From contig OY843768.1 of the NCBI GenBank assembly GCA_963693095.2, positions 736,001 to 800,000 on the forward strand: 64,000 nt of DNA, read 5' to 3'. Of this stretch, positions 18,361 through 52,049 are shown piece by piece (position 1 is the first letter of the stretch; each line of letters starts with the position of its first letter). The translations under genes were made by a program, and so were the position numbers. Under the pieces are notes generated by a model. That model searched no databases and was not told where the DNA came from. It was given only the letters and a program-made list of their open reading frames with translations. Source of the stretch: Cenarchaeum sp. (GTDB lineage: Archaea; Thermoproteota; Nitrososphaeria; Nitrososphaerales; Nitrosopumilaceae).

Positions 18361-19465
18361 TACTCACGAGCTAAAGTTCGTATAGATGATCAAGTTTCCC
18401 CGACCCCGCAGCTATATTGATCGCCCCCTCCCGCGCCAGGGCATGGACGACCGGAAGCGGGAGGAGCTGAGGGACGCGCACCACAGCGAGAAGAGCGGGC
18501 ACGTGAGGGACAGGATGCTCGCCGTGCACTGCGTGGTCAACATGGGCATGACGCACGAGGACACGGCGGACACGCTGATGCGGTGCCCGGGGTGGGTCGG
18601 CAAGTGGGTTGCGCGGTACCGGGAGGGCGGGCTTCCCGCCCTCCGCGACCTCCCGCGCTCCGGGAGGCCGCTGGCCGTGCCGCGAACGGCGCTCGACGGG
18701 ATCCTCGCCGACGCGTCGGGATCCCCCACGACCCCGGCCGCGGTCCGCGACAGGATCGCCGGGGCGGCGGGGACACTGTTCCACATAGCCAGCGTGAGGA
18801 GGCTCATGCGCGAGTTCGGCCTCTCGCGCAAGAGGCCGCGAAAGGCCCACGTCAACAGGGCGAGCGCGTCCGCCGTCCGCAGCTGGCAGCGGCGCCTTGC
18901 GGGGGCGGCGCCACGCCTGGCGCGCGCGGGATACACGATGCTGGTGCAGGACGAGTCGATCATCGTGAACGACGCCGGGGGCATGGCGACGCACTGGACG
19001 CCGCGCACGGTGCCCGTCTACGAGCCGTACACCGGGAGCCACGAGCGGATCGTCGTGTACGGGGCGATCGCCGAGGACGGGCGGCAGGCGTTCCGGACGC
19101 GCGACAAGTTCAACGCGGACACGTTCGCGCAGTACCTTGCGGAGCTGCACGGGAAGTTCGGCAAGATCGCCGTCATCGTCGACAGGGCTCCCCAGCACCG
19201 CGCGGGGGCGGTCAAGGACCTGCTGCGCGCCAACGGCGAGATCAAGCTCATCGAGCTGCCGGTGGGATCCCCGCAGCTAAGCGCCATCGAGGGGACGTGG
19301 CGCATACTCAAGAGGGACGTCAGGGTCCCGGGGCAACCACGAACCCTGGACGAGCTGAGGATCGCGGTCGGCGAGTACCTCAGGACCAAGCGGTTCAACC
19401 TGAACATCTACGCATACCTGAACAGGAAGGTCGTGGAAGGTCACACGAACTTTAGCTCGTGAGTA
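18361..19465 (+). mobile_element. Intact IS630-family insertion sequence
   Basis: Perfect inverted repeats CTATACTCACGAGCTAAAGTTCGT (18358-18381) and ACGAACTTTAGCTCGTGAGTATAG (19445-19468). These include a duplicated TA in a reconstructed CTAG target, which is canonical for IS630. Confidence 0.93.
18386..19462 (+). CDS. IS630-family transposase
   Basis: HTH region (WVARYREGGLPALRDLPRSGRP) and DDE motifs QDES, VDRAPQH and SPQLSAIE; single uninterrupted frame. Confidence 0.92.
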   Translation: MIKFPRPRSYIDRPLPRQGMDDRKREELRDAHHSEKSGHVRDRMLAVHCVVNMGMTHEDTADTLMRCPGWVGKWVARYREGGLPALRDLPRSGRPLAVPRTALDGILADASGSPTTPAAVRDRIAGAAGTLFHIASVRRLMREFGLSRKRPRKAHVNRASASAVRSWQRRLAGAAPRLARAGYTMLVQDESIIVNDAGGMATHWTPRTVPVYEPYTGSHERIVVYGAIAEDGRQAFRTRDKFNADTFAQYLAELHGKFGKIAVIVDRAPQHRAGAVKDLLRANGEIKLIELPVGSPQLSAIEGTWRILKRDVRVPGQPRTLDELRIAVGEYLRTKRFNLNIYAYLNRKVVEGHTNFSS

Positions 19466-39700: not shown

Positions 39701-39950
39701 GCGCCGGCGATGTCACGACGGCCTCGTTGAACGTCACGGCTATGGTGACCCTGTCGCCGGCGTTCGCCCAGTTCAAAGTACCTCCCGTGCGATCCACAAA
39801 GGTGCCGTCAACATTGTCGGCCACGGTGACTGTGAGGACGGTGACCCCCGGAGGCGTCGTGTCTGCCCCCTGGGCCGTCGCACCGCTGACAGAGGCGGCA
39901 AGAAAGAGCGACATGATCGCAAACGCCAGTGTTGGCACTGCAGCCCGCAT
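30774..39950 (-). CDS. Giant secreted surface protein with Ig-like/SwmB-like repeats (3058 aa), copy 2
   Basis: Colinear paralog of 20955-30137 (offset about 9.82 kb); near-identical signal peptide and C-terminal domain. Confidence 0.9.
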   Translation of the reverse strand: MRAAVPTLAFAIMSLFLAASVSGATAQGADTTPPGVTVLTVTVADNVDGTFVDRTGGTLNWANAGDRVTIAVTFNEAVVTSPAPTITVPGAHRTPTATAMGDAGDSDGLTWSHSFVVDAADRGSFGLTFTIVATDTATPTANTNPSTGTGSITGSQITSGNNALVNARPLALSSAEFTGPRTIRMQFSSTLDTSTVIPSNIEVTAPDNTITPPDGDTLPDMIGVSNVVRTTAFVATATLGANAIPGVAYTIAPTFENSYGTPFDPATCGATCELTYTAPLVLSSAEFTGSKAIRMTFDDTIDMSTVTTSNLGVTAPDNTLTPHDADTLPDVITVSSVARTTAMIVTATLGANAIPGVVYTIAPTFENSAGTPFDPATCAATCTQTHTPPFRVDKTGDNSYFAVLKSNAVGSTIRASEFVIINLPDSTREIPVTAVGHPFSSAGRGVTSTIDNRLDFDIRVAFSDGLGPDETPTIRYTSPATGGLAFGGTDLGAGVWDIVAVDKVSITTRPPSVSSDGTSVRVTFSGPVTVLPESVIRVHTAVGTTGPVAGSVGGSNLMVSPTNPNEVVGTLPQRLKSGEYIPDAQNFADRATPPNQSAGRSGISVVNSPAPEISVALLTGDRTTVVRLDEAVSGTLRAADWSLSGMTSDGPVTVEIQSVRAGEHSTLDLLRTPTVELDSATAFTLRHESISNLDLTSMPGIMFAKPATLLAGQTAMADSGGDPMDTDPFTLDELMLVDRTREIPSPKTVVDGTPMTLVSATLDSPTQVSATLSRAVDANIALTGSEWTIGGGITFDTGHVAADRITLTRTQALDFTDLAAGTVLLYTGSDTASNRVIDASGRVVLRTGSSVPLTDGIGPTASASFGAPGVINVAFSEALASPETIAGLTYTVTEDSTAVTLSGPHEYNPLTHTLELMLAGTATHRDVYAVALPSTGLADTSGNALTTTTAMATAPPFTAVTDSPTRTTVSFFGPPLTSGFLNLGHWIVTDDDDGDPGTSERRPISSLVLGTTSLIAAQSQLLPTLKLPASNTATEMIITHATLSSTGSTPNVRHNFVPQIGLPPGVSGSPSAAQGLSVPYHNAEAVDNVPPTYTAKTVSRTGTDITFSEAVVLPVAGERAAGWQVGGHQASHAGSQPSGALTLYHADTASTGATPPVTYTVPTGSNAPPGIVDPVGNALSAQAARMAADGAPPTPVASFGAADTITVNFGEAMANAGTIATLTYAVTVPDGDDAGGDPDAVPQAAGSPAYNAGTNTLTITLASAATTGVEHTVSLPSTGLADAQDNAVTERSVSTAFGDAPPAAFTARTIDSRTIAVTFPLQPGGTLDADDWAVTEAGTDRRVTAVSAATGILEGTGDLLRSIILTHDGLASTASTPKVTYTATDGDLTYGTTVLTTSQATAADTAPPEISSSVISTPTLLHVTFTEPVTFVENIEDTFDPYVEGTEGTDNDWVVAEEEDNSASPVEILVLSAMRATPLTYTLSLGSEIVANREYTVIPDGDIADMAEPANAVGAEESSMITPADSFTAETQTLTTTRVTFDGSLGGTLDTMNWTVTENDAASDAGNVALTTLSVATVATSGKVTATPETSEGAGDAATPAIPSSPAVTELLITHGPLSSTAATPSVMYVAGTLTDGVNAVLSYSTEASDGAPPELAAGNSLHMTKKEMGMFKMDLAAPARLNDNVWVNVTVTEPLYVGNTLIPLYNDNTNNNVAALGDAMFFTDSASPVTASHMFRPFQSAPLQYNYSHTVTSSSPEVDVTFSITVRDAEGNAATFTHADLTTRATNADGSSIAGAGYRVSIDRTPPTMLTDADTRTTSATSLTVKLSENLPRGATVALADWGVAEGTTAVTVTSTTLNSARDLVTIGYADADVDTSFAPTVTYMGTGLSDGAGNPLASGSTVIAPDRLVPSIDTVRFHSHTTVHVTFTEGVALPSSPAGWSISPGLGTVSLTQPGSDRFIRMNLENPATLGDTYMIRLGQVTDKATVPNSLAAGTQVTQEYLEIIPPAAYTATTHRAADSTYVRIVFTSMVTGNIHLNEWFVGTARDGTGGTQATAFSAVCTSGGAPTAVSAMPFDITSICQGTDTEPLTFYIGYDAQASDATPHIAYRPASGQTMPVLLASDGTPIAGRTTAIDGLPPLFTAKTVSPRSIEVTFDEDVTAAAGGPDASRWYHYATATTSPALPTATELAAAVTAGTNFGTAELDGRTLTLTLAESTVITTGWGTGDTTITPAALGYDVPSSEQPDILDASTAPNGLVTGTATNDIADDAPLSAYPLTLTVADEASGSFTDRTGATSQHANVGDRITFEVTFSEDIVTSPAPTITVPGTHRTNAPTAMNNAGDTDDRTWSHSFVVDAADDNAPLEFAIRATGANPATALELTQSDITSGGNAVIDTEPPEFLQVFRPPGNTHQLTIYTEPVHGVASIVSTGSLGQVHTFTLTIAPEAATHTIRQDHSRVNFGPFTISISGLTDRAGNPLVPVPTMQAPLVEAGGTLSALELTVPATGEYTIEAVGEERGELGESTRIILSSLPSDTLAGTITVNVDGATVTLRQSTVVEDFGDVDTDESVVVVRLPPPARDTEYVAAMGADEEETAANEAVTRVLASRPPATLVELGKSGDATPMTFDRPVAIRLLGAGAAAHAFWLSGADGLTVHSIPECESFDDSGVPRGIGSGAIELRECRVSDGGDLVIWTNHFTRFGATQAGAGGGGGGDGCDDCTPPTLGVDSTGTRRVSQGFSYNGEAVDAEYYYTPMPLITVETGVENVAIIKVFEDTGPLNVRHVGLAFGLGRGQHFGESSAEIRVSLPYGNGNATASVGGAVDTIDAETLRASSEIGACMAGSEAECRIVTIHHTFREPLDFDVVSTVVWDERRNSWQNFFNHGVHVTGESLNPSHGIEVNGGTLVLYPLIASNVDADGDGTYDYDTRHVTYMLDDEYRVYRITPAGTYEPLRNLSSLYHEIDESMYDEERATQHGWARGTDSFAELIAYERAIAREHLHAMGVVPTAPTAEPAHVVSSEPEDQQEYLERLRAKIAHEINLAELALLEMYPAPPPE

Positions 39951-41587: not shown

Positions 41588-41740
41588 GCGTTTTGGCAAA
41601 AAAAAAATCACACACTAGGGGGCACTGCTCTTTTGCCATACTGCCTGCCCTGCGTTTTGAAAAAAAAATCACACTAGGTGGTACTCTGCTCGTTCGCCAG
41701 GCTGCCGGCCAGGCGTTTTGAAAAAAAGCGCGCACTGGCC
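41588..41740. repeat. Three degenerate ~62-bp repeats with A7-A10 tracts between convergent pgk and mqnE
   Basis: GCGTTTTG(GC)A7-10...CACT(A)GG at 41588, 41652 and 41713. These read as T-tracts on the minus strand and could be terminators for mqnE. Confidence 0.6.
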
Positions 41741-41822: not shown

Positions 41823-42920
41823 CTAGAGGCGGCGAACCGTCCCAAACATCGTGTCACGCTGGACGGGCGTGCGCCCAATCTCGCGAACCAACGCGCCAAG
41901 CTCGTCAACAGACGAGCCAGTGGACTTGCCGGCTGCCCTGTATATCTCCTCAGAGAACGCGGTCCCGACAAGGTCGTTGCCGCCGTTGGAGAGGGCGACC
42001 TGCGCGAGCTTTTTGCCGTACGCGACCCAATAGACCGAGATGTTGTCTAGCGCGCCGGCGAGCAGGAGGCGCGAGGCGGCCATGACGCGCAGGTCGTATA
42101 TCGAGGAGCACTCGGCAGTCACGTCCCCGTCGCGGACCAGCTCCGTGTTCTCGAGGCTGAACTTTAGCGGGATGAACGTGATAAACCCGCGGGTCCTCTT
42201 TTGGAGCTCGCGCACGCGCAAGAGGTGGTCGACTATATGCTCGGGCCGCTCGACGTGCCCATAGAGCATCGTCACGTTGCTCCTTATGCCCTGCCTGTGC
42301 GCCTCCTCGACTGTGTCAAGCCACTCTTGGCCGCTGCACTTGCCGCGCACGACCCTCTTGCGCACGTCCGGATGCAGGATCTCGGCGCCCCCGCCGGGAA
42401 GCGTGTCAAGGCCGGCGTCCTTTAGCCTCGAGAGAATCTCGCGCACGCTCACCCTTGTGAGGGCCGAGAGGTAGAATATCTCAGCGGCCGTGAACGCCTT
42501 TATATGCATGGCCGGCTGGCTCTTTTTTATCGAGCGGAGCATCTCCTCATAGTACTCGAGTGGGAGCTTTGGGTGAAACCCGCCGACAATGTGGACCTCT
42601 GTTGCGCCCATGCCCCGCGCCGCCGAGACGCGCGCAGTTATCTGCTCGGCGCTAAGCGTGTACGCGTCATCATCGCCGGCCTTGCGGTAGAACGCGCACA
42701 TTTGGCAGCTCGCAGCGCAGACGTTGGTATAGTTCATGTAGTAGGATGCGGCAAACGTCACGTCATCTCCCACGCTCCGGCGGCGGACCTCGTCGGCGAC
42801 GGCGCCGACCATGTGCAGGTTTTCAAGCGAGAATATCTCCATGCCGTCCTCGGCGTCAAGCTCCTCGCCCGCAAGGGCCCGCTCAAGCGCGCGTGACTTG
42901 CCCACTAGGCTCTCTAGCAC
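41823..42920 (-). CDS. mqnE: Radical SAM aminofutalosine synthase MqnE (CofH-like family)
   Basis: NYTNVCAASCQMCAF (CxxxCxxC), EVHIVGGFHP.LP.EYY, HIKAFTAAEI, PGGGAEI, TMLYGHVE and VYWV. These are closer to MqnE than MqnC, but MqnC is not excluded. Confidence 0.8.
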   Translation of the reverse strand: MLESLVGKSRALERALAGEELDAEDGMEIFSLENLHMVGAVADEVRRRSVGDDVTFAASYYMNYTNVCAASCQMCAFYRKAGDDDAYTLSAEQITARVSAARGMGATEVHIVGGFHPKLPLEYYEEMLRSIKKSQPAMHIKAFTAAEIFYLSALTRVSVREILSRLKDAGLDTLPGGGAEILHPDVRKRVVRGKCSGQEWLDTVEEAHRQGIRSNVTMLYGHVERPEHIVDHLLRVRELQKRTRGFITFIPLKFSLENTELVRDGDVTAECSSIYDLRVMAASRLLLAGALDNISVYWVAYGKKLAQVALSNGGNDLVGTAFSEEIYRAAGKSTGSSVDELGALVREIGRTPVQRDTMFGTVRRL

Positions 42921-43123
42921 AAGGGTGCGCACCACACGGGCAAATATAACGCTTGAGCGCACAGCCGTCGTGCGCCACCTGCGCGCAAATGCTGGGAAAT
43001 CACGGCACCATGTGCGCCATGGCGCCGCCAGAGAGCTTAATCGCGCAGGGCCCGCATCAGGCCCACAGTCCGCTGCCCTGGGCAGGCTATATCATATATA
43101 GCAGGGCAGCGTGGAATTCGTGC

Positions 43124-43732
43124 ATGACGTCGCCCTATTGGAGAGCGCACGGGGACCCGCCAATAGTAGTGGGGACTGCGGCGACCACGATATATATGCT
43201 AGGCATCATACTGGCCATAGCAAGGGTCACCGGAATCGTGCACGATGTCGGATCGTTTGGCGCCGTCATTGGGACCATGGCGTTGGGGTTTATGGTCTAC
43301 ATATTTGTGAATAGCACAACGCGCGACAACAAGGCCGAGCGGGGCAGAGAGTATGAATTGAGGGAGGCTGACAGTGAAAACATCAGTCGATTAACACACA
43401 TAATCAACCAGTGTGAGATATCGCTGCTAAAATTAGAGCAGCATAAAGAAACACCCAGGGAGAGATCAGTCATGGAGTTACAATATGTGCGAGGCCAGAC
43501 AGATGATATTGTAAAAAATTATGAAAAGTATTTGAGTCCAGAAGGTCGAAAACTAGTCGGAATCATTAAGGACATAATCGACGAGATGAGGTTTAACGGC
43601 CATGCAGGAAATACACGAATGGATGACGCGATTAAAAATATAGTACAATTAAAACAACACGTAATAGATGTGGATGATCATGTGCTCAAAAGCATCAGAG
43701 AGTCAACCATGCACGGAACGCCAAATCAGTAG
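43124..43732 (+). CDS. Array gene A1: 2-TM membrane protein with helical C-terminal domain (202 aa)
   Basis: TATA box (CATATATA) about 25 nt upstream; two TM helices (TTIYMLGIILAIARV; FGAVIGTMALGFMVYIFV); AT-rich C-terminal half. Confidence 0.75.
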   Translation: MTSPYWRAHGDPPIVVGTAATTIYMLGIILAIARVTGIVHDVGSFGAVIGTMALGFMVYIFVNSTTRDNKAERGREYELREADSENISRLTHIINQCEISLLKLEQHKETPRERSVMELQYVRGQTDDIVKNYEKYLSPEGRKLVGIIKDIIDEMRFNGHAGNTRMDDAIKNIVQLKQHVIDVDDHVLKSIRESTMHGTPNQ

Positions 43733-43759
43733 AGAGGCAGATTCGCGCCCAACTGCGCA

Positions 43760-44305
43760 TTAGCGCATATAGCCCAACCGGAGCAGCTCGTCATAAATTT
43801 GCTCTACCTGTTTTTTTGTGTAGGTTGGTTTTGTGGACGCAACGTATTTGGGCAATTCTGCTCCAACAATCCTATACTTAAGTTCGACAAGAATTAGCCT
43901 ACTTGCAATTTCAAGCCAAGTGAGATCATGCGTATGCATAAACTGTAAAAATTCGTCCATGCGAGGCCAATAGGCAATATCCCTGGAATCCGCCTCAGAT
44001 ATGTCAGGCAAGACATAATAGTCGCTGGCAAGTTCCGGGGAATATGGCCCATAATCAAAAAGGCCATGGCCATAGGTAAATGCCAGACCAAACACATTTT
44101 GGGCAAAATAGACATACAGTTGGATTTTGATGCGTTCGCTTTCTGACGCATCTCTGGGGTTTTTGTCGCAGTCGATCAATTTGTGCTCAAGAAGGAGCTT
44201 GAGGAGCGGAGCCGTGTTGGGATCGGCAACTAGCGGGTCGTTCAAAAAATCCGGTATCTCCAACGGGGCACGCTCAACTGCTGTTCCATATGCCGCAGGA
44301 ATCAT
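43760..44305 (-). CDS. Array gene B1: YwgA/Panacea (DUF4065/SocA)-like antitoxin-fold protein (181 aa)
   Basis: Motifs RIKIQLYVYFAQ, Y.H.LF.YGPYSPELASDYY and WLEIAS match the 'R.K.QK..Y...Y....GPYS..L...LE..AT' signature. Confidence 0.65.
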   Translation of the reverse strand: MIPAAYGTAVERAPLEIPDFLNDPLVADPNTAPLLKLLLEHKLIDCDKNPRDASESERIKIQLYVYFAQNVFGLAFTYGHGLFDYGPYSPELASDYYVLPDISEADSRDIAYWPRMDEFLQFMHTHDLTWLEIASRLILVELKYRIVGAELPKYVASTKPTYTKKQVEQIYDELLRLGYMR

Positions 44306-44494
44306 GCTATGGCACCCCACTGACCCAGGCTGCTCTCCTCGCCGTCATGACTTGGCAGAGTGGCTTAAATGATTTAACTGTTTTTGGAATTCCACGCGCG
44401 AGAATCTAGCATTCCTGCCCATTTTGGTCAAATGGGCGCGATCCTGCCGATCCGTTTACCGCGGCTACGCCCGCCGTGGGGGGGGGGGGGTGCC

Positions 44495-44745
44495 GTGGCC
44501 AGGCTCCGCCGTGCCCTGCCGCGAATGTTCGCGTTCTGCACGTCGGCGCCGAGCCCACGAACGGCGCCTCTGAGAGGGCGCTGCTGCACGGGGCCGTGCG
44601 CCGCAAGACAGGCGGCCAGCTCAAGTGGGGCGCCGCCCCGGCCGAGCGTATGTCGACCACCCCGGCATGCCTCTTCACGTGGAAGGCCACGGGGAAGAGC
44701 GTGGCCGGGGAGGTCATGCTAGCGATCCGGGTGCTGACCCCATGC
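44495..44745 (+). pseudogene. IS66 transposase C-terminal remnant, unit 1
   Basis: ARLRRALPRMFAF / VGAEPTNGASERALLHGAVRRKTGGQLK...ACLFTWK, frameshifted; preceded by a G13 run at 44478-44490. Confidence 0.75.
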
Positions 44746-44781
44746 CCAGTATTAGCCACAAAGGAGACAACTGGCGAGATT

Positions 44782-44925
44782 ATGTTTAACGGCCATGCGG
44801 GAAATACACTCATGGATGACGCGATTAAAAAGATCGGCCAGCTAAATCAACACGTGAGGGATGTGGATGATCAAAAGCTCAAAAGAACCAGAGAGACGAC
44901 CATGCACGGGACGCCAGATCAGTAG
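44782..44925 (+). pseudogene. Orphan 3' tip (47 codons) of array gene A
   Basis: MFNGHAGNTLMDDAIKKIGQLNQHVRDVDDQKLKRTRETTMHGTPDQ is homologous to the last 47 aa of A1/A2. Confidence 0.75.
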
Positions 44926-44950
44926 AGGCAGATTCGCGCCCAACTGCGCA

Positions 44951-45496
44951 TTAGCGCATATAGCCCGACTGGAGCAGCTCGTCATAAACTTGCTCCACCT
45001 GTTTTTTTGTGTAGGTTGGTTTTGTGGACGCAACGTATTTGGGCAATTCTGCTCCAACAATCCTATCGCGGAATTCAACATGAATTAGCGTACTTGCAAT
45101 TTCAAGCCAAGTGAGATCATGCGAATGCGCAAACTGTAAAAATTCGTCCTTGCGAGACCAATAGGCAATATACTGGGAATCCGCCTCAGATATGTCAGGC
45201 AAAAGACGATAGTCACTGGCAAGTCCCGGAGAATGTGCCCCATGTCTAAAAAGCACATGATAATAGCTGAATGCCAGATCAAACACATTTTGGGCAAAAT
45301 AGACATACAGTTGGATTTTGATGCGGTCGTTTTCTGAGGCATCTCTGGGGTTTTTGCCACAGTCGATCAATTTGTGCTCAAAGAGGAGCTTGAGGAACGA
45401 GGCCGTGTTGGGATCGGGAATTTGCGGATCACTCAAAATACCCGGCATGTCTGCCATGGCACGCTCGGATACTGCACCATATGCCGTGGAAGCCAT
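44951..45496 (-). CDS. Array gene B2: YwgA/Panacea-like protein (181 aa)
   Basis: Intact 546-nt paralog with the variant loop YYHVLFRHGAHSPGL. Confidence 0.65.
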   Translation of the reverse strand: MASTAYGAVSERAMADMPGILSDPQIPDPNTASFLKLLFEHKLIDCGKNPRDASENDRIKIQLYVYFAQNVFDLAFSYYHVLFRHGAHSPGLASDYRLLPDISEADSQYIAYWSRKDEFLQFAHSHDLTWLEIASTLIHVEFRDRIVGAELPKYVASTKPTYTKKQVEQVYDELLQSGYMR

Positions 45497-45674
45497 GCTA
45501 TAGCACCCCACAGACACAGTCTGCTCGCCGCGTCACCATGACTCGGCAGAATGGCCCAAATGATTTAACTGTTATTGGAATTCCACGCGCGGGAATCGGG
45601 CATTCCTGCCCATTTTGGCCAAATGGGCGCGATCCTGCCGATCCATCTGCCGCGGTGGCGCCCGCCGGGGCGCG

Positions 45675-45935
45675 CCGTGCCCGGGCTCCGCTGCGCCCTG
45701 CCGCGAATGTTCGCGTTCTGCACGTCGGCGTCGAGCCCACGAACGGCGCCTCCGAGAGGGCGCTGCGGCACGGGGCCGTGCGCCGCAAGACAGGCGGCCA
45801 GCGCAAGTGGGGCGCCGCCTCGGCCGAGCGCATGTCGACTACCCCAGCATGTCTCTTCACGTGGAAGGCCACGTGAAAGGCCACGGGGAAGGGCGGGCCG
45901 TAGAGGCCATGCGCGCGATCCGGGTGCTGACCCCA
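45675..45935 (+). pseudogene. IS66 transposase remnant, unit 2
   Basis: EPTNGASERALRHGAVRRKTGGQ; shares a 4-bp deletion with units 1 and 3 and a ~12-bp duplication with unit 3. Confidence 0.75.
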
Positions 45936-45974
45936 TGCCCAGTATTAGCCACAAAGGAGACAACTGGCGAGATT

Positions 45975-46118
45975 ATGTTTAAAGGCCATGCGGGAAATAC
46001 ACTCATGGATGACGCGATTAAAAAGATCGGCCAGCTAAATCAACACGTGAGGGATGTGGATGATCAAGAGCTCAAAAGAACCAGAGAGACGACCATGCAC
46101 GGGACGCCAGATCAGTAG
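45975..46118 (+). pseudogene. Orphan 3' tip of array gene A
   Basis: MFKGHAGNTLMDDAIKKIGQLNQHVRDVDDQELKRTRETTMHGTPDQ. Confidence 0.75.
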
Positions 46119-46143
46119 AGGCAGATTCGCGCCCAACTGCGCA

Positions 46144-46689
46144 TTAGCGCATATAGCCCAACCGGAGCAGCTCGTCATAAACTTGCTCTACCTGTTTTTT
46201 CGTGTAGGTTGGTTTTGTGGACGCAACGTATTTGGGCAATTCTGCTCCAACAATCCCATACTTGAGTTCAACAAGAATTAGCCTACTTGCAATTTCAAGC
46301 CAAGTGAGATCATGCGAATGCGCAAACTGTAAAAATTCGTCCATGCGAGGCCAATAGGCAATATCCAGGGAATCCGCCTCAGATATGTCAGGCAAAACAT
46401 AATAGTCGCTGGCAAGTTCAGGGGAATACGGCCCATAATCAAAAAGGCCATGGCCGTAGGTAAATTCCAGACCAAACACATTTTGGGCAAAAAAGACATA
46501 CAGTTGGATTTTGACGCGTTCGTTTTCTGACGCATCTCTGGGGTTTTTGTCACAGTCGATCAATTTGTGCTCAAAAAGGAGCTTGAGGAGTGGAGCAGTG
46601 TTGGGATCGGCAAGTAGCGGATCTTTCAAAAAATCTGGTATCTCCAACGGGGCACGTTCATGTATTACCCCATATGACGCAGGAATCAT
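46144..46689 (-). CDS. Array gene B3: YwgA/Panacea-like protein (181 aa)
   Basis: Intact 546-nt paralog with GPYSPELASDYY. Confidence 0.65.
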   Translation of the reverse strand: MIPASYGVIHERAPLEIPDFLKDPLLADPNTAPLLKLLFEHKLIDCDKNPRDASENERVKIQLYVFFAQNVFGLEFTYGHGLFDYGPYSPELASDYYVLPDISEADSLDIAYWPRMDEFLQFAHSHDLTWLEIASRLILVELKYGIVGAELPKYVASTKPTYTKKQVEQVYDELLRLGYMR

Positions 46690-46869
46690 GCTATGGCACC
46701 CCACTGACCCAGTATGCTCGCCGCGTCGCCATGCTCCAGCAGAATTACCCAAATGATTTAACCGTTTTTGGAATTCCACGCGCGGGAATCGGGCATTCCT
46801 GCCCATTTTGGCCAAATAGACGCGATCCTGTCGATCCATTTACCGCGGTGGCGCCCGCCGGGGCGCGCC

Positions 46870-47310
46870 GTGGCCAGGCTCCACTGCGCCCTGCCGCGAA
46901 TGTTCGCGTTCTGCACGTCGGCGTCGAGCCCACGAACGGCGCCGCCGAGAGGGCGCTGCGGCACGGGGCCGTGCGCCGCAAGGCAGGCGGCCAGCGCAAG
47001 TGGAGCGACGTCTCGGCCGAGTGCATGTCGACCACCCCAGCATGTCTCTTCACGTGGAAGGCCACGTGAAAGGCCACGGGGAAGGGCGGGCCGTAGAGGC
47101 CATGCGCGCGATCCGGGTGCTGCCCCCATACCCAGTATTAGCCATAAGGAGACAACCGATGAGATGATGTTTAACGGCCATGCGGGAAACACACTCATGG
47201 ATGACGCGATTAAAAAGATCGGCCAGCTAAATCAACACGTAAGGAATGTGGATGATCAAGAGCTCAAAGGGATCAAAGTCGACCATGCATGGAACGCCAA
47301 ATCAGTAAAG
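46870..47310 (+). pseudogene. IS66 remnant unit 3 plus frameshifted 3' tip of gene A
   Basis: EPTNGAAERALRHGAVRRK, then DEMMFNGHAGNTLMDDAIKK with a frameshift near 47270. Confidence 0.7.
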
Positions 47311-47335
47311 AGGCAGATTCGTGCCCAACTGCGCA

Positions 47336-47881
47336 CTAGCGCATATAGCCCAACCGGAGAAGCTCGTCATAAACTTGTTCTACCTGTTTTTTTGTGTAGG
47401 TTGGTTTTAGGAACGTAACGTGTTTGGGCAAGGCTGTTCCAACAATCCCATCGCGAAATTCAACATGAATTAGCGTACTTGCAATTTCAATCCAAGTGAG
47501 ATCATGCGTATGCGCAAACTGTAAAAATTCGTCCATGCGAGTCCAATAGGCAATATCCCTGGAATCCGCCTCAGATATGTCAGGCAAGAGATAGTAATCG
47601 CTGGCAAGTTGCGGGGAATATGGGCCATGTTCAAAAAGCCCATGGGAGTAGGTAAATGCCAGACCAAACACATTTTTGGCAAAATAGACATACAGTTGGA
47701 TTTTGACGCGTTCGCTTTCTGACGCATCTCTGGGGTTATTGCCACAGTCGATCAATTTGTGCTCAAAAAGGAGCTTGAGGAGTGGAGCCGTGTTGGGATC
47801 GGCAACGCGCGGATCGTTCAAAAAAGAGTCCAAGTCCGTCGTGGCACGCTCGGATACTGTGCCATATGCCGCGGAAACCAT
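47336..47881 (-). CDS. Array gene B4: YwgA/Panacea-like protein (181 aa)
   Basis: Intact 546-nt paralog with GPYSPQLASDYY. Confidence 0.65.
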   Translation of the reverse strand: MVSAAYGTVSERATTDLDSFLNDPRVADPNTAPLLKLLFEHKLIDCGNNPRDASESERVKIQLYVYFAKNVFGLAFTYSHGLFEHGPYSPQLASDYYLLPDISEADSRDIAYWTRMDEFLQFAHTHDLTWIEIASTLIHVEFRDGIVGTALPKHVTFLKPTYTKKQVEQVYDELLRLGYMR

Positions 47882-48172
47882 GCTATGGCACCCCACAGAC
47901 CCAGTATGCTCCCCGCGTCACCATGACTCAGCAGAGTGGCCTAAATAATTTAACCGTTTTTGGAATTCCACGCGCGGGAATCGGGCATTCCTGCCTGTTT
48001 TGGCCAAATGGACGCGATCCCGCCGATCCGTTTACCGCAATGGGGTGGAATTCCAGCCCATGTGCGCCATAGCGCCACCGGAGAGCTTAATCGTGCAAGG
48101 ACCGCATCAGGCCAAAGTCCACGGCTCAGGGCAGGCTATATCATATATAGCCGGGCAGCGTGGAATTCGTGC

Positions 48173-48781
48173 ATGACGTCGCCCTATTGGAGAACGCACG
48201 GCGACCCGCCAATAGTCGTGGGGACTGCGGCGACGACGATATACATACTAGGCATCATACTGGCCATAGCAAGGGTCACCGGAATCGTGCACGACGTTGG
48301 ATCGTTTGGCGCCGTCATTGGGACCATGGCGCTGGGGTTTATGCTCTACATATTTGTGAATAGCACAACGCGCGACAACAAGGCCGAGCGGGGCAAAGAG
48401 TATGAATTGAGGGAGGCTGACAGTGAAAACATCAGTAGATTAACACGCATGATCAAGCAGTGTGCGATAACGCTGCAAAAATTAGATCAACATAAAGAAA
48501 TATTCAAAAAAAGACCGGACATGGCAATACAACACCTGTTAGGACTGATAGACGATATTTCAACAAATTATGAAAAGTATTTGAGTCTAGAAGGCCGGAA
48601 ACTATTCGAAATTATTAGGGACACAATTGACGAGATGATGTTTAACGGCCATGCAGGAAATACACGTACGGACGATATGATTAAAAAGATCGATCAGCTG
48701 AATCAACATATAAGGGATGTGGATGATCAAGAGCTCAAAAGAAACAGAGAGTCGATCATGCACGGAACGGAAAATCAGTAG
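48173..48781 (+). CDS. Array gene A2: 2-TM membrane protein (202 aa)
   Basis: Same length and promoter as A1; TM half nearly identical, cytosolic helical half strongly diverged. Confidence 0.75.
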   Translation: MTSPYWRTHGDPPIVVGTAATTIYILGIILAIARVTGIVHDVGSFGAVIGTMALGFMLYIFVNSTTRDNKAERGKEYELREADSENISRLTRMIKQCAITLQKLDQHKEIFKKRPDMAIQHLLGLIDDISTNYEKYLSLEGRKLFEIIRDTIDEMMFNGHAGNTRTDDMIKKIDQLNQHIRDVDDQELKRNRESIMHGTENQ

Positions 48782-48804
48782 AGGCAGATTCGTGCAACTG
48801 CGCA

Positions 48805-49350
48805 TTAGCGCATATAGCCCAACTGGAGCAGCTCGTCATAAATTTGCTCTACCTGTTTTTTTGTGTAGGTTGGTTTTAAGGTAGCAACGTATTTGGGCAA
48901 TTCTGGTCCAACAATCCTATCGCGAAATTCAATATGAATTAGCCTACTTGCAATTTCAAGCCAAGTGAGATCATGCGTATGCGCAAACTGTAAAAATTCG
49001 TCCATGCGAGACCAATAGGCAATATCCTGGGAATCCGCCTCAGATATGTCAGGCAAGAGATAGTAATCACGTGCAAGTTGCGGGGAATGTGGCCCATGTT
49101 CAAAAAGCCCATAGCGATAGGTAAATGCCAGATTAAACACATTTTGGGCAAAAAAGAAATACAGTTGGATTTTGATGCGTTCGCTTTCTGACGCATCTCT
49201 GGGGTTTTTGTCACAGTTGATCAATTTGTGCTCAAAAAGGAGCTTGAGGAGCGGAGCCGTGTTGGGATCGGCAACGAACGGATCGTTCAAAAAAGAGTCC
49301 AAGTCCGCCATGGCACGCTCGGATACTGTACCATATGCAGTGGAAGCCAT
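48805..49350 (-). CDS. Array gene B5: YwgA/Panacea-like protein (181 aa)
   Basis: Intact 546-nt paralog with GPHSPQLARDYY. Confidence 0.65.
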   Translation of the reverse strand: MASTAYGTVSERAMADLDSFLNDPFVADPNTAPLLKLLFEHKLINCDKNPRDASESERIKIQLYFFFAQNVFNLAFTYRYGLFEHGPHSPQLARDYYLLPDISEADSQDIAYWSRMDEFLQFAHTHDLTWLEIASRLIHIEFRDRIVGPELPKYVATLKPTYTKKQVEQIYDELLQLGYMR

Positions 49351-49529
49351 GCTATGGCACCCCACAGACCCAGTCTGCTCGCCGCGTCACCATGACTCAG
49401 CAGAGTGGCCCAAATGATTTAACTGTTTTTGGAAATCCACGCGCTGGAATCGGGCATACCTGCCCATTTTGGCCAAACGGGCGCGATTCTGCCGATCCGT
49501 TTACTGCAACGGCGCCCGCCGGGGCGTGC

Positions 49530-49965
49530 CGTGGCCAGGCTCCGCCGCGCCCTGCCGCGAATGTTCGCGTTCTGCGAGCACGTCGGCGTCAAGCCCACGA
49601 ACGGCGTCGCCGAGAGGGCACTGCGGCACGGGGTCGTGCGCCGCAAGACAGGCGGCCAGCTCAAGTGGGGCGCCGTCTCGGCCGAGCGCATGTCAACCAC
49701 CCCGGCATGCCTCTTCACGTGGAGGGCCACGGGGAAGAGGGGGCCGTAGAGGCCATGCGCGCGTCCCAAGTGCTGACCACATGCCCAGTATTAGCCATAA
49801 GGAAGACAACCGGCGAGATGATGTTTGATGACCATGTAGGAAATACATGAATGTGTGTGGCGATTAAAAATATAGAGCGATGAAATCAACATGTAGCGGA
49901 TGGGGTGATCAAGAGCTCAGGGGGATCAGAGAGTCGATCACGCACGGAACGCCAAAACAGTAGAG
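49530..49965 (+). pseudogene. IS66 remnant (best preserved) plus degenerate 3' tip of gene A
   Basis: In-frame ARLRRALPRMFAFCEHVGVKPTNGVAERALRHGVVRRKTGGQLKWG...CLFTWRATGK; the A tip is interrupted by stops. Confidence 0.78.
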
Positions 49966-49988
49966 GCATATTCGCGCCCAACTGCGCA

Positions 49989-50534
49989 TTAGCGCATATA
50001 GCCCAACAGGAGTAGCTCTTCATAAATTTGCGCTACCTGTTCTTTTGTGTAGGTTGGTTTTAAGGTCGCAACGTATTTGGGCAATTCTGGTCCAACAATC
50101 CTATCGCGAAATTCAACATGAATTAGCGTGCTTGCAATTTCAAGCCAAGTGAGATCATGCGCATGCACAAACTGTAAAAATTCGTCCTTACGAAGCCAAT
50201 AGTCAATCTTCTGGGAATCCGCCTCAGATATGTCAGGCATGACATAATAGTCGCTGTTAAGTCCCATGGAGTATGGCCCATGTTCAAAAAGCCCATGGCG
50301 ATAGGTAAATGCCAGACCAAACACATTTTGGGCAAAATAGACATACAGTTGGATTTTGATGCGTTCGTGTTCTGACGCATCCCTGGGGTTTTTGTCACAG
50401 TCGATCAATTTGTGCTCAAAAAGGAGCTTGAGAAGCGGAGCCGTGTCGGGATCGGCAACGTGCGGATCTTTCAAAAAATCTGGTATCTCCAACGGGGCAC
50501 GCTCATGTATTACCCCATATGACGCAGGAATCAT
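49989..50534 (-). CDS. Array gene B6: YwgA/Panacea-like protein (181 aa)
   Basis: Intact 546-nt paralog with GPYSMGLNSDYY. Confidence 0.65.
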   Translation of the reverse strand: MIPASYGVIHERAPLEIPDFLKDPHVADPDTAPLLKLLFEHKLIDCDKNPRDASEHERIKIQLYVYFAQNVFGLAFTYRHGLFEHGPYSMGLNSDYYVMPDISEADSQKIDYWLRKDEFLQFVHAHDLTWLEIASTLIHVEFRDRIVGPELPKYVATLKPTYTKEQVAQIYEELLLLGYMR

Positions 50535-50857
50535 GCTATTGCACCCCACTGACCCAGTATGCTCGCCGCGTCGCCATGCTCCAGCAGAATTACCCAAATG
50601 ATTTAACTGTTTTTGGAATTCCACGCGCGGGAATAGGGCATTTCTGCCCATTAGGGCAAGGCAGCAGATCCTCGTGCGCCTGCCCCACGGCCCGTAGACA
50701 CGCCCGCCACGCCCCGGCCAATGCGCGACGTGGCCGCAGGCAGGATCACGGGAGGCCCGAGGCGGCCGCACGGATCACCCTGGCGGCCCCACGCCATGCC
50801 AAGATCACGCGAGTCGCGCCGCAAGCAAGATATGTGCCTGTGCGGCGCAGTCATGCG

Positions 50858-51103
50858 ATGAGCGCAAACACGATCAAAAAGGCCAAGAGGCTCGTAGAGT
50901 CTGGCAGCGTGGCCAAGATCGAGGACGACATCTACCAGGTCAGGTCATCGAGTGACGCATCAAAGTCGTACATTGTTGACGGCGAGTCGTGTGACTGTCC
51001 CGGATACGCCAACTTTTACAAGTTTCACGGCGGCAAGGGGATAAAGGCAAACTGTTCGCACCTAGAGGCAGTCAGGCTGTTCCGAGGCGACGAGAAAGCC
51101 TAG
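50858..51103 (+). CDS. Stand-alone SWIM zinc-finger protein (81 aa)
   Basis: KAKRLVESG.V...YQVRSS...YIVD...CDCP...CSH matches the SWIM CxCxnCxH pattern. Confidence 0.8.
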   Translation: MSANTIKKAKRLVESGSVAKIEDDIYQVRSSSDASKSYIVDGESCDCPGYANFYKFHGGKGIKANCSHLEAVRLFRGDEKA

Positions 51104-51951
51104 GCGCCGGCGCGCATACCGTCGCTGGCCATCCTGTACGCGATGTTCTTTACCATCACGTTGAGCGACTTCATGAGGTCGCTGCCCTCCTCATAGTTGC
51201 CCGTGTATGGCCCCACTGTAGTGCGTCGCGCAAGGGCCAGCGCATGGCCGGCCCGAAACGACGGGTCGCCGGCTATGCCTATGCACTGCCCACCGTTGTT
51301 CTGCACGGCAGAAAAGCATGGCACGTCATTCTTGCTGTCGCCAACATAGATCATGTTGCCAAACGGTATACGGCGACTTGCGTCATCCTTGAACGAGTTG
51401 ACGAGATATGGGTTTTTGCGCAGCTTTGTCCCGCCGATGCCCTTGTTTATCGCATGCAGGAACTTTGTCTTTTCGGTGAACGTGACGGCCGATTTTATGG
51501 CGTGTATCTTGCCATTCTCATCCTCGGCAAACGTGCCGCCAAACACGTCATTGAACGTGTCGGCAAACGGCGCGCCCCGTATGATCTCCTCAAATCCCGA
51601 CGATATTATGTAAAACTCTACGCCTATTCCGGCATCAACAATGTCAGGGTCAGAGTCGACCATGGCGCGAACTCGCGACACGAGATCCATGACCCCCGGA
51701 TTGGGCGTTATCTTACCTCCAAGCCCGCGCAGCAGGGCGTTGGTGTCCTGCGCTATGTCTCTGGTGCGAATCTTGTCGAGTATCATCGTCATCCACGCTA
51801 TTGGCGGATCCCATCCGTCGGCCACGAGCGACTTGTGCGCGTCCCAGAATGCGCGCGTGTCAACGCCGTTGCTCTCGAGCAAAAAGTTAGTCGTGTCTGG
51901 CGCGAGCGTGTCATCACAGTCACACACCACGGCTATCGTGCTCTGGGCCAT
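51100..51951 (-). CDS. HAD-superfamily hydrolase
   Basis: Motif I DCDDTL, YIISSG, TEKTK.L..INKG and MIYVGDSKNDVPC. Confidence 0.85.
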   Translation of the reverse strand: MAQSTIAVVCDCDDTLAPDTTNFLLESNGVDTRAFWDAHKSLVADGWDPPIAWMTMILDKIRTRDIAQDTNALLRGLGGKITPNPGVMDLVSRVRAMVDSDPDIVDAGIGVEFYIISSGFEEIIRGAPFADTFNDVFGGTFAEDENGKIHAIKSAVTFTEKTKFLHAINKGIGGTKLRKNPYLVNSFKDDASRRIPFGNMIYVGDSKNDVPCFSAVQNNGGQCIGIAGDPSFRAGHALALARRTTVGPYTGNYEEGSDLMKSLNVMVKNIAYRMASDGMRAGA

Positions 51952-52049
51952 ACGCAGCGATCCGTGACGGCGCATATTAAAACGGATTCGGCGCGCGTGC
52001 GGCAGCGGCACCCAAAGGTACATAATCCCAAAGCCGGCCCGCGCGCCCC

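What the first reader, a model, noticed from the sequence alone, without database searches (positions are those of the whole stretch)
43000..50650. Tandem library of six intact, mosaic YwgA/Panacea-like antitoxin-fold genes coupled to a variable 2-TM gene: candidate new immunity/sensor array
Seen: six B genes, each exactly 546 nt, without stops or frameshifts and each with its own copy of the upstream region. The IS66 fragments and some A tips in the same units have decayed, so B appears to be under selection to stay functional. Amino-acid differences cluster in the N-terminal arm, the loop around GPYS (YGHGLFDYGPYSPEL / YYHVLFRHGAHSPGL / YSHGLFEHGPYSPQL / YRYGLFEHGPHSPQL / YRHGLFEHGPYSMGL) and the helix after LEIAS. 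Established: the R.K.Q..VY...GPYS...LE..A signature is typical of YwgA/DUF4065 (Panacea/SocA) proteins, which act as antitoxins to many unrelated toxins; a related region forms the DarG C-terminus. Inference: this is an amplified, diversifying panel of antitoxin or sensor variants, perhaps neutralising incoming toxins or controlling the convergent 2-TM protein as a membrane effector. I know of no described archaeal system with this layout.
Basis: partly seen in the sequence, partly recalled or inferred. Interest (0 to 1): 0.85.

Follow-up and report, generated by a model that had tools for sequence, protein, structure and literature searches.

The report
Amplified antitoxin-like genes with membrane partners
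A sponge-symbiont-type archaeon carries six tandem, intact copies of a small gene distantly related to the "Panacea"/DarG antitoxin domain, next to two intact and four insertion-truncated copies of a two-helix membrane protein, most likely an amplified toxin-antitoxin-type module of a known general kind.

Summary
Six ~1.19-kb tandem units (43733-51150) each carry an intact 546-nt minus-strand gene B. Two intact 202-aa 2-TM genes (A1, A2) and four A remnants behind IS66 fragments lie between them.

B has no Pfam, PADLOC or PHROGs hit. Even so, a 118-sequence family profile finds only M. tuberculosis DarG (7yk3) in the PDB (E 0.0019). The AF2 model's only whole-domain structural match is the same entry (Z 7.3, 136 residues). 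hhalign to Pfam-positive SocA_Panacea proteins gives 95-97% probability.

In other Thermoproteota, the gene just after a B relative is PIN, MazF/PemK or HD in 12 of 19 neighbours tested. In this genome, intact A-family genes directly follow B paralogs at six clear loci. The genome holds about 40 B paralogs.

B is therefore a divergent Panacea-like antitoxin candidate and A its candidate membrane toxin. That is inferred, not shown.

Diversifying selection is not shown. dN/dS is 0.38-1.01, and variable sites are not significantly clustered (P 0.33). Selection for intact ORFs is supported (P about 0.0008, no indels), and gene-conversion mosaicism is supported (P 0.0035).

A same-genus genome has 3 B and 2 A at the syntenic site.

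Verdict: a new variant of a known kind, of moderate interest.

The parts
43124..43732 (+). A1: intact 202-aa protein with 2 N-terminal TM helices and a cytosolic helical bundle; candidate membrane toxin or effector. Start chosen at MTSPYW; the longer TTG ORF starts at 42953.
   Evidence: ORF. 202-aa database gene calls P0159-P0163. TM segments. AF2 model pLDDT 77.5. Homologous to 2-TM partners of other B paralogs at E 1e-6 to 3e-12.
43760..44305 (-). B1: 181-aa Panacea/DarG-C-like antitoxin candidate, convergent with A1 (27 nt between the stop codons).
44306..44432 (-). Conserved upstream region of B1, repeated before every B. It holds a TATA-like ttaaatcatttaag 60-72 nt before the ATG and GGAAT/ATTCC palindromic motifs. 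Candidate promoter and operator (inferred).
   Evidence: (87% identity, no indels).
44440..44760 (+). IS66 transposase 3'-end remnant, unit 1.
44761..44925 (+). A tip: the last 54 codons of an A gene, unit 1.
44951..45496 (-). B2: the most divergent copy (GAHSPG variant). This type is conserved in the same-genus genome G004 (dN/dS 0.31).
45631..45953 (+). IS66 remnant, unit 2.
45954..46118 (+). A tip, unit 2.
46144..46689 (-). B3: mosaic copy. Its first 90 nt are nearest B6 (5 differences); the rest is nearest B1.
46824..47144 (+). IS66 remnant, unit 3.
47146..47310 (+). A tip, unit 3. It is decayed near its end: only model positions 147-192 are matched and the frame runs on.
47336..47881 (-). 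B4: divergent from A2 across a 290-nt spacer.
48173..48781 (+). A2: the second intact 202-aa 2-TM protein, 78% identical to A1. Differences are concentrated in the cytosolic part.
48805..49350 (-). B5: convergent with A2 (GPHSPQ variant).
49485..49797 (+). IS66 remnant, unit 5.
49800..49961 (+). Decayed A tip, unit 5 (in-frame stop; not detected by the A profile).
49989..50534 (-). B6: the last copy, followed by unique flank.

Best explanation
The locus is an amplified two-gene module of the Panacea-type toxin-antitoxin kind.

B: a cytoplasmic 181-aa protein. It has a disordered, variable N-terminal arm, a helical domain homologous to the Panacea (DUF4065) domain and the DarG C-terminal toxin-binding domain, and a C-terminal winged-helix-like end.

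A: a 202-aa protein anchored by two N-terminal TM helices, with a cytosolic four-helix bundle.

Inferred mechanism:
- B binds the cytosolic part of A and keeps it from damaging or depolarising the membrane.
- B may also repress its own promoter through the winged helix.
- When B is lost or titrated (stress, virus infection, loss of the locus), A arrests the cell.

Array history, read from the sequence:
- An IS66 element replaced the 5' three quarters of one A gene.
- The unit [B + promoter + IS66 remnant + A tip] was then multiplied by unequal crossing-over.
- The copies exchanged segments by gene conversion.
- The result is six B genes but only two intact A genes.

The surplus B genes are kept open by selection. 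The most likely reason is that they act as spare or cross-protecting antitoxins against the roughly ten A-family paralogs of this genome or against incoming ones.

Shown: homology of B, genomic linkage of A and B, array anatomy, selection for open B frames, recombination between copies.
Inferred: toxicity of A, binding of B to A, DNA binding by B.
For: B homology:
- A 118-sequence profile (A4) against all PDB sequences finds only 7yk3_B, DarG of M. tuberculosis (E 0.0019), aligned on the RLKxQK..GPYS motif.
- In the VIA wide search, 7yk3_D is the only match among the rows shown that covers the whole domain (Z 7.3, rmsd 4.0, 136 residues, model 28-177). All other rows cover only residues 126-181, as winged helices.
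- 8 of 12 relatives weakly hit NCBIfam DarG positions ~183-296 (E 4.7e-5 to 0.074).
- hhalign of A4 against 18 Pfam-positive SocA_Panacea ORFs gives 95.3%, E 2.3e-8 over 99 columns. With all 21 ORFs it gives 96.9%, E 1.6e-10.
- Three loci are hit by both A4 and PF13274.
- PMC13621843 (passages read) states that DUF4065 proteins are homologous to the DarT-inhibiting C-terminal domain of DarG.

Antitoxin position:
- I picked 19 nearest neighbours from 33 loci of other genera. Six are PIN (3 above the Pfam cut-off), 2 are PemK/MazF and 4 are HD+HD_assoc_2. They lie mostly directly downstream and co-directional, some overlapping.

A-B linkage:
- A1 and A2 are homologous to 2-TM proteins that directly follow B paralogs at C1:19426, 27189, 1109245 and 1383129. 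The A profile adds 1331852 and 1934338. Gaps run from -33 to 106 nt.
- The A family was found only in the genus: 4 of 41 genomes.

Precedent:
- 3 of 9 validated Panacea pairs have membrane-depolarising toxins with TM helices (PMC8832971, passages read).

Selection:
- No stop among at least 165 substitution events (expected 6.75, P 0.0008).
- 0 indels in the B CDS against 6.7-8.4 gap openings per kb-pair in the IS66 remnant and A tip.
- The B2 type is conserved in G004 with dN/dS 0.31. For A, dN/dS is about 0.13 in the TM part and about 0.42 in the cytosolic part.

Array dynamics:
- 623 of 1378 informative-site pairs are four-gamete incompatible; PHI-like P 0.0035.
- G004 has 3 B and 2 A at the syntenic site.
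Against: - No Pfam, PADLOC or PHROGs model matches B or A. PF13274 finds nothing in this genome even at E 10.
- Foldseek against the PDB finds nothing for B.
- Z 7.3 is in the range that the tool says is common for unrelated helical models.
- A is a 202-aa protein with a folded cytosolic domain, unlike the small pore-forming peptides typical of membrane TA toxins. Its fold matches only generic four-helix bundles.
- In the window A and B are convergent or divergent, not the co-directional operon seen elsewhere.
- B divergence looks close to relaxed. dN/dS is mostly 0.64-0.93, variable sites by codon position are 57/37/50, there is no significant clustering (P 0.33), and 15 of 44 family-conserved positions vary.
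- Toxicity of A and neutralisation by B rest on analogy only.
Confidence: 0.55

Rival explanations
1. Sensor panel for abortive infection. The six B variants are not just spare antitoxins. Each would recognise a different viral or mobile-element protein, and its capture would release the shared membrane effector A, as a fused antitoxin domain does in CapRel-type systems. The array would then be a diversified recognition library, with many sensors and few effectors.
For: - The B:intact-A ratio is 6:2 here and about 14:3 in a second array at C1:16.7-33.1 kb.
- B types are old and kept across species (B2 against G4_Bb, dN/dS 0.31), while between-type dN/dS is 0.6-1.0.
- Mosaic recombination reshuffles segments.
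- The N-terminal arm is the most variable part (pN 0.24) and is predicted disordered.
- The family is expanded to about 40 copies in this genus, against 1 copy in 28 of the 36 other genomes that have it.
Against: - No window has convincing dN/dS above 1; the windows at 1.3-1.4 rest on very low dS.
- Variable positions are not clustered (P 0.33).
- No virus-derived partner or trigger is known.
- No RNA data were available.
- Four of the six units lack an effector beside them because of an IS insertion, which looks like decay rather than design.
Confidence: 0.15
2. Membrane-tethered regulatory pair, not a toxin-antitoxin. B would be a winged-helix transcription factor, and A a membrane protein that sequesters or releases it, like an anti-sigma or membrane-sensor arrangement. 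Neither would be toxic.
For: - The C-terminal 55 residues of B superpose on many winged-helix DNA-binding domains (Z 5.7-7.3, rmsd 1.6-2.6).
- There is a conserved palindrome-rich upstream block.
- A has a sizeable cytosolic helical bundle with generic similarity to signalling bundles.
- A evolves under purifying selection.
Against: - Relatives of B pair with PIN, MazF/PemK and HD proteins rather than membrane sensors.
- B is homologous to toxin-binding domains.
- Two A paralogs carry single in-frame TGA stops and four are IS-truncated while the neighbouring B genes stay intact. That is the pattern expected when a toxin is lost first.
Confidence: 0.1
3. Largely neutral amplification. The array would be a by-product of IS66-associated rearrangement and unequal crossing-over. 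The surplus B copies would have no function of their own and be on their way to decay, with gene conversion from a functional copy keeping the frames open.
For: - dN/dS is near 0.75, with near-equal variation at the three codon positions (57/37/50).
- Variable positions are not significantly clustered, and family-conserved positions such as P87, Y88 and P90 are changed in single copies.
- Gene conversion is evident.
- Copy number differs between species, 6 against 3.
Against: - No disabling substitution where 6.75 are expected (P 0.0008).
- No indel in 6 x 546 nt, while adjacent non-coding parts of the same units have 6.7-8.4 gap openings per kb-pair.
- The oddest copy (B2, GAHSPG) has an ortholog-like partner in G004 with dN/dS 0.31.
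- The upstream block is also indel-free.
Confidence: 0.12
4. Assembly artefact. Strain variants of a single A-B locus would have been stacked into a false tandem array.
For: Units are 85-96% identical, a range in which metagenome assemblers can mis-join. Only short contigs (142-1624 nt) from public runs could be laid on the array, and none spans a whole unit.
Against: - A separate same-genus genome in one contig (G004) has three B and two A genes at the same syntenic site, with conserved flanks.
- Short contigs with 0 differences bridge the U3/U4 junction (run X6, study P3; 47263-47408) and the U5/U6 junction (run X1; 49646-49999).
- The units differ in structure (U4 carries a whole A gene), so they are not alleles of one locus.
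- A second array of the same families lies elsewhere in the genome.
Confidence: 0.03

Closest known systems
PanA/PanT (Panacea, DUF4065, Pfam PF13274 SocA_Panacea) type II toxin-antitoxin pairs; Kurata et al. 2022, PMC8832971 (abstract and passages read)
   Same: - Small stand-alone antitoxin-position protein with the K.QKL.Y/F...GP(Y/F)S motif.
- hhalign 95-97% to Pfam-positive members.
- Relatives pair with many unrelated toxins: PIN, MazF/PemK, HD.
- Membrane toxins with TM helices are among the validated partners.
- Occurs in archaea.
   Different: - B and 55 tested relatives do not reach the Pfam model.
- B carries a C-terminal winged-helix-like end rather than the N-terminal HTH described for some PanA proteins.
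- The partner A is 202 aa with N-terminal TM helices and a folded cytosolic bundle.
- The genes are convergent or divergent here.
- Copy number of about 40 per 2-Mb genome exceeds the maximum of 25 DUF4065 genes per genome quoted in that paper.
- Tandem array with IS66-truncated partners.
DarG C-terminal domain of the DarTG system (PDB 7yk3; Deep et al. 2023 Structure 31:780, known to me only through its citation in PMC13621843)
   Same: It is the only PDB sequence hit of the family profile (E 0.0019) and the only whole-domain structural match among the rows shown (Z 7.3, 136 residues). That domain binds and inhibits its toxin directly.
   Different: B has no macrodomain, and no DarT-like gene is adjacent. 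Sequence identity in the structural alignment is 12%. The partner is a membrane protein rather than an ADP-ribosyltransferase.
Orphan or surplus antitoxins and TA decay (general TA biology; from my own knowledge, not from a call)
   Same: Toxin genes are inactivated (IS truncation, nonsense codons) while the neighbouring antitoxin genes stay intact.
   Different: Here the orphan unit was itself amplified four times and recombines with the intact units.

Membership tests
Panacea / SocA_Panacea (Pfam PF13274, DUF4065) | Match to the Pfam model above its gathering score | tested here: not met
   0 of 6 B proteins. 0 of 4 and 0 of 51 relatives. 0 matches in the whole genome at E up to 10.
Panacea / SocA_Panacea (Pfam PF13274, DUF4065) | Homology detectable by profile-profile comparison | tested here: met
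   hhalign of A4 against 18 Pfam-positive ORFs: 95.3%, E 2.3e-8, 99 columns. With 21 ORFs: 96.9%, E 1.6e-10. The A4 HMM hits 8 of 21 Pfam-positive ORFs at E<1e-3. Three loci are shared by both searches.
Panacea / SocA_Panacea (Pfam PF13274, DUF4065) | Antitoxin-position gene next to diverse toxin genes | tested here: met
   Relatives in other genera: 12 of 19 tested neighbours are PIN (6), PemK/MazF (2) or HD (4). In this genome the partner is the 2-TM A family.
Panacea / SocA_Panacea (Pfam PF13274, DUF4065) | Direct binding and neutralisation of the cognate toxin | not testable with these tools
   Needs co-expression and pull-down experiments.
DarG (DarTG antitoxin, NCBIfam NF048014) | C-terminal toxin-binding helical domain | tested here: inconclusive
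   Sole PDB profile hit 7yk3_B, E 0.0019 over 37 residues. VIA Z 7.3, rmsd 4.0, 136 residues. NF048014 is hit weakly, far below its cut-off of 250 bits, by 8 of 12 relatives and not by B1 itself.
DarG (DarTG antitoxin, NCBIfam NF048014) | N-terminal macrodomain and an adjacent DarT gene | tested here: not met
   B is 181 aa with no Pfam domain. Its neighbours are A genes and IS66 remnants.
Type II toxin-antitoxin module | Two small adjacent genes in one operon, antitoxin first | tested here: inconclusive
   Met at six other A-B loci of the genome (gaps -33 to 106 nt, same strand). Not met in the window, where the genes are convergent (24-28 nt between stops) or divergent (290 nt).
Type II toxin-antitoxin module | Toxin arrests growth; antitoxin rescues | not testable with these tools
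IS66 family insertion sequence | DDE_Tnp_IS66 transposase gene | tested here: not met
   Only ~320-nt 3'-end remnants are present in units 1, 2, 3 and 5, and their translations have no Pfam hit. They are 75-79% identical to the ends of full 472-aa IS66 transposase genes elsewhere in the genome. They are remnants, not elements.
Known 2-TM effector or toxin families in Pfam and PADLOC | Match of A to any curated model | tested here: not met
   No family at E<0.01 shared by more than 2 of 10 A-family members. No PADLOC, NCBIfam or PHROGs hit.

The most novel reading that the evidence does not exclude
The B arrays of this archaeal genus would be a combinatorial recognition system. There are six copies here, about fourteen in a second array, and about forty in the genome. 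Recombining Panacea-like proteins would each sense a different invader protein and gate a small set of shared membrane effectors of the A family. That would be an innate-immunity layout of many sensors and few effectors, generated by tandem amplification and gene conversion.
Probability: 0.15. Interest if true: 0.8.

Novelty: new variant of a known kind. Interest (0 to 1): 0.5.

Why it matters
- It places a large protein family on the map of the Panacea/DarG-C antitoxin superfamily. The family has 1392 representative clusters at E up to 1e-3 and is invisible to Pfam, PADLOC and PHROGs.
- Domain-based surveys of sponge-associated ammonia-oxidising archaea would miss these roughly 40 copies in a 2-Mb genome. 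One such survey reported no enrichment of toxin-antitoxin modules by Pfam or COG (PMC7848895, passages read).
- It offers a new candidate membrane-acting partner family (A), restricted to one genus among the genomes searched.
- It gives a natural case of what happens after toxin loss: antitoxin-only units are amplified, kept open and shuffled. This makes the question of why cells keep orphan antitoxins testable with a 6 x 2 rescue matrix.

Tried and rejected
- Pfam, PADLOC, NCBIfam and PHROGs on B and A: no usable hit for the window's own proteins.
- Foldseek against the PDB: no match at E<=0.001 for B; only generic helical bundles and GPCR fusion partners for A. A second look at Foldseek's own list gave only winged helices for residues 126-181 of B.
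- ESM Atlas: the nearest clusters for B and A are unnamed. A cluster in which 13% of members carry PF13274 scored 0.79, which is a lead only.
- PDB profile search with the narrow 12-sequence alignment A2: only a chance beta-propeller hit at E 0.48. The broad alignment A4 was needed.
- The search for related loci with A4 failed because no stretch was conserved enough. With A2 it gave 6 loci.
- Complex prediction of B1 with A1 residues 66-202: no verdict (score 0.01 against a mark of 0.32). This is not evidence either way.
- Sequencing runs: no RNA holder was listed, so expression is untested. Only short contigs could be laid, and depth is not a copy number.
- Sigma-70-type promoter and intrinsic-terminator scans found fewer sites than shuffles, and they do not apply to an archaeon.
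- Earlier findings of this scan: none for this genome.
- The inverted-repeat scan of the B upstream region was not run because my call was malformed. The palindromic motifs are read by eye.
- Rejected: membership in DarG proper (no macrodomain, no DarT).
- Rejected: positive selection as a demonstrated fact.
- Rejected: 'differences cluster' as a statistically supported statement.
- Not tested: any relation to B. subtilis YwgA.
- Literature: I searched 'Panacea/DUF4065/antitoxin', 'DarG/C-terminal domain/DarT/crystal structure', '7YK3' and 'Cenarchaeum/toxin-antitoxin'. No listed paper describes this family or array, but these four searches do not prove absence. I did not open the supplements of PMC8832971, which could list archaeal members.

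Full report
**What is there**

Between a radical-SAM (CofH/MqnC-type) gene ending at 42962 and unique flank from about 50.7 kb lie six head-to-tail units of 1184-1469 nt.

- Each unit carries a minus-strand ORF of exactly 546 nt (B1-B6, coordinates in 'parts'). All have an ATG start and a TAA or TAG stop, with no internal stop or indel.
- The six proteins are 74-91% identical to each other. They are at most 44% identical to any other paralog in the genome, so they form a young clade.
- Two intact plus-strand genes, A1 (43124-43732) and A2 (48173-48781), encode 202-aa proteins with two N-terminal hydrophobic helices. Database gene calls have the same length.
- In units 1, 2, 3 and 5 the place of A is taken by a GC-rich ~320-nt segment followed by the last ~54 codons of A.
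- That segment is 75-79% identical to the 3' ends of several 472-aa genes in the genome. One of these genes is an IS66-family transposase by Pfam (PF03050, E 1e-38).
- The A tips of units 3 and 5 are damaged.

**What B is**

No curated library recognises B or its relatives:
- Pfam: 0 of 6 copies, 0 of 4 and 0 of 51 relatives.
- PADLOC and PHROGs (apart from one relative hitting an unnamed family).
- PF13274 in the whole genome at E 10.

The word-index search found only 9 proteins. A profile search over 1.84 billion representatives found 1392 at E<=1e-3 and 234 at E<=1e-10, so this is a sizeable unnamed family.

Three independent lines tie it to the Panacea/DarG-C superfamily:

1. A 118-sequence profile searched against every PDB sequence returns one entry, 7yk3 (the M. 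tuberculosis DarTG complex, DarG chain). E is 0.0019, aligned over the RLKxQKxxYxA...GPYS motif.
2. The AlphaFold2 model (pLDDT 79) was aligned to 48,161 PDB representatives. It has 7yk3_D as its only whole-domain match among the rows shown (Z 7.3, rmsd 4.0, 136 residues, model 28-177). Every other row covers only residues 126-181 as a winged helix. Z 7.3 alone would be unremarkable. Its weight comes from landing on the same entry as the sequence search.
3. I took 21 ORFs from 301 genomes of the phylum that pass or approach the Pfam SocA_Panacea model. hhalign of the B-family alignment against 18 of them gives 95.3% probability (E 2.3e-8, 99 columns). The three loci also hit by the B profile were left out of that set. 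With all 21 it gives 96.9%.

In addition, 8 of 12 relatives weakly match NCBIfam's DarG model in its C-terminal half. A 2026 paper states that DUF4065 proteins are homologous to the DarT-inhibiting C-terminal domain of DarG (PMC13621843, passages read).

B is thus a remote member of that superfamily. It is not a member of the Pfam family as currently defined, and it is not a DarG (no macrodomain, no DarT).

**What B's relatives do in other genomes**

In a sample of 301 genomes of the phylum, 38 have the family. Of the 36 outside this genus, 28 have a single match and the maximum is 6.

I inspected 33 fetched loci and chose by eye the nearest co-directional neighbour. Nineteen proteins were sent to Pfam. 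L028 and L042 duplicate L023 and L041. L052 and L054 resemble L048 by eye and were not sent. Results:

| Neighbour type | Count of 19 | Note |
|---|---|---|
| PIN | 6 | 3 above the gathering score |
| PemK/MazF | 2 | |
| HD + HD_assoc_2 (~430 aa) | 4 | 2 downstream, 2 upstream |
| Winged-helix regulator | 1 | |
| Weak hits only | 2 | |
| No hit | 4 | |

Several of these genes overlap or abut the B gene. A small upstream gene paired with many unrelated toxin-type genes is the behaviour that defined Panacea (PMC8832971, abstract and passages read).

**What A is, and the A-B link**

A1 and A2 have no known family. Only five near-full-length relatives exist in 5.8 billion clustered proteins: the window's own A1 and A2, plus three from two other contigs.

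Within the genome, BLASTP links them (E 1e-6 to 3e-12, 21-29% identity over ~180 residues) to 2-TM proteins at C1:14519, 19426, 27189, 1109245 and 1383129. A profile of the family also reaches 1331852 and 1934338.

Six of these seven intact genes lie directly after a clear B-family gene on the same strand, with gaps of -33 to 106 nt. The seventh (14519) follows an ORF with only a 9.8-bit resemblance to B. Other B paralogs are followed by 2-TM proteins that my searches did not link to A (193806/1055138, 999585).

The A family was found in 4 of 41 related genomes, all of them in the same genus.

The A model (pLDDT 77.5) shows TM helices at about 15-36 and 42-64. The second runs on as a long helix to residue 106, followed by a four-helix bundle. 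The basic stretch after TM2 suggests a cytosolic bundle (inference from the positive-inside rule).

A evolves under purifying selection, stronger in the membrane part (dN/dS about 0.13) than in the bundle (about 0.42).

The repeated A-B adjacency across diverged paralogs is the main evidence that the two proteins work together.

**Genome-wide picture**

On all six-frame ORFs of at least 50 aa, the B profile finds 39 ORFs at E<=1e-3 and 43 at E<=1e-2. The A profile finds 19, fragments included.

A second array at C1:16.7-33.1 kb holds about 14 B ORFs. It has only 3 intact A genes, two A genes each broken by one in-frame TGA, and two fragments. 'Many B, few intact A' is therefore a recurring state in this genome, not a peculiarity of the window.

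The record title returned for the nearest public relative names a Cenarchaeum sp. MAG. That genus comprises sponge symbionts (PMC7848895, passages read).

**How the array evolved**

The same-genus genome G004 (one contig) has A-B, an IS66-type spacer, then B-A-B at the syntenic site. The flanks are conserved at 89-94% identity. A multi-unit array therefore predates the split of the two species, and copy number has since changed (6 against 3 B).

Segment-wise nearest neighbours change along the gene. For example, B3 is nearest B6 in its first 90 nt and nearest B1 elsewhere. 623 of 1378 pairs of informative sites fail the four-gamete test, and neighbouring sites are more compatible than shuffled ones (P 0.0035). 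Gene conversion or unequal exchange between units is thus ongoing.

The simplest history is this. An IS66 element destroyed the 5' part of one A gene. Most of the IS was later lost. The resulting B-only unit was then multiplied.

**Selection on B**

Pairwise dN/dS is 0.38-1.01, with most pairs between 0.64 and 0.93. Variable sites fall 57/37/50 on the three codon positions. 75 of 181 residues vary. Their distribution is not significantly clustered (P 0.33), and family-conserved positions vary almost as often as others (15 of 44 against 37 of 79).

Against pure neutrality:
- None of at least 165 substitution events creates a stop or destroys a start or stop codon, where 6.75 are expected (P 0.0008).
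- The CDS and its 127-nt upstream block have no indels, while the IS66 remnant and A tip in the same units have 6.7-8.4 gap openings per kb-pair.
- The most deviant copy, B2 (GAHSPG instead of GPYSP), has a close counterpart in G004 with dN/dS 0.31.

My reading is that the B genes are functional and under relaxed or heterogeneous constraint. Old 'types' are maintained across species and shuffled by recombination.

**Mechanism and its status**

Most likely (0.55) B is an antitoxin-like neutraliser that binds the cytosolic bundle of A. A is then a membrane-acting toxin or effector, as in the three validated Panacea pairs with membrane-depolarising toxins.

B's winged-helix end and the conserved palindrome-bearing upstream block suggest autoregulation.

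Toxicity of A, binding of B to A and DNA binding by B are inferences. A structure prediction of the complex gave no verdict (listed under Tried and rejected).

Rival readings, each with its evidence in the Rival explanations section:
- sensor panel for abortive infection (0.15)
- non-toxic membrane-tethered regulator pair (0.10)
- functionless copies kept open by gene conversion (0.12)
- assembly artefact (0.03)

**Novelty and verdict**

The kind is known: a Panacea-type antitoxin with a membrane toxin. What is new:
- a Pfam-invisible branch of the superfamily
- a genus-restricted 2-TM partner family
- an expansion to about 40 copies in 2 Mb, above the maximum of 25 DUF4065 genes per genome quoted in PMC8832971
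- tandem, recombining arrays in which antitoxin-only units have been amplified after IS66 truncation of the partner

I rate it a new variant of a known kind, interest 0.5. The bold reading (a recombining sensor library) is not excluded, but nothing here supports it directly.

Noticed in passing
window 20955-30137 (-) and 30774-39950 (-): Two adjacent ORFs of about 3060 aa each with no Pfam family at E<=1e-5. They look like a tandem pair of giant proteins just upstream of pgk.
   Followed up: no
own genome C1:515968-564453 and C1:564486-608168 (outside the window): My crude ORF caller gives two adjacent open frames of 16,161 and 14,560 aa. A B-family gene and a 2-TM gene lie just upstream (C1:512472-513538).
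   Followed up: no
own genome C1:16690-33146 (outside the window): A second, older array on the + strand. It has about 14 B-family ORFs, 3 intact A-family genes, 2 A genes each split by a single in-frame TGA (C1:17580-18143, C1:24947-25510) and 2 A fragments.
   Followed up: partly
window 41599-41720: Two tandem copies of a 61-nt unit that starts with an A9 run, 75% identical, in the spacer between pgk and the radical-SAM gene.
   Followed up: no
own genome C1:45820-47238 and C1:843685-845103: Full-length IS66 transposase genes (472 aa; one checked by Pfam) sit directly beside B-family genes at two other loci. This suggests a recurrent association of IS66 with these modules.
   Followed up: partly
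window 44364-44414 and the same block in every unit: The conserved B upstream block holds a TATA-like ttaaatcatttaag and GGAAT/ATTCC palindromic motifs. This is a candidate archaeal promoter plus operator, read by eye.
   Followed up: partly
window 42001-52000: G+C drops to 0.51-0.56 across the array, against 0.61-0.65 on the left flank and 0.62 in the next 2 kb on the right.
   Followed up: no
window 18386-19462 (+): A DDE_3 (IS630-type) transposase gene with HTH domains. It is another mobile element in the window.
   Followed up: no
window 6001-8000: This block has the lowest G+C of the window (0.487) and none of my called genes of at least 80 aa lies between 5163 and 9310.
   Followed up: no
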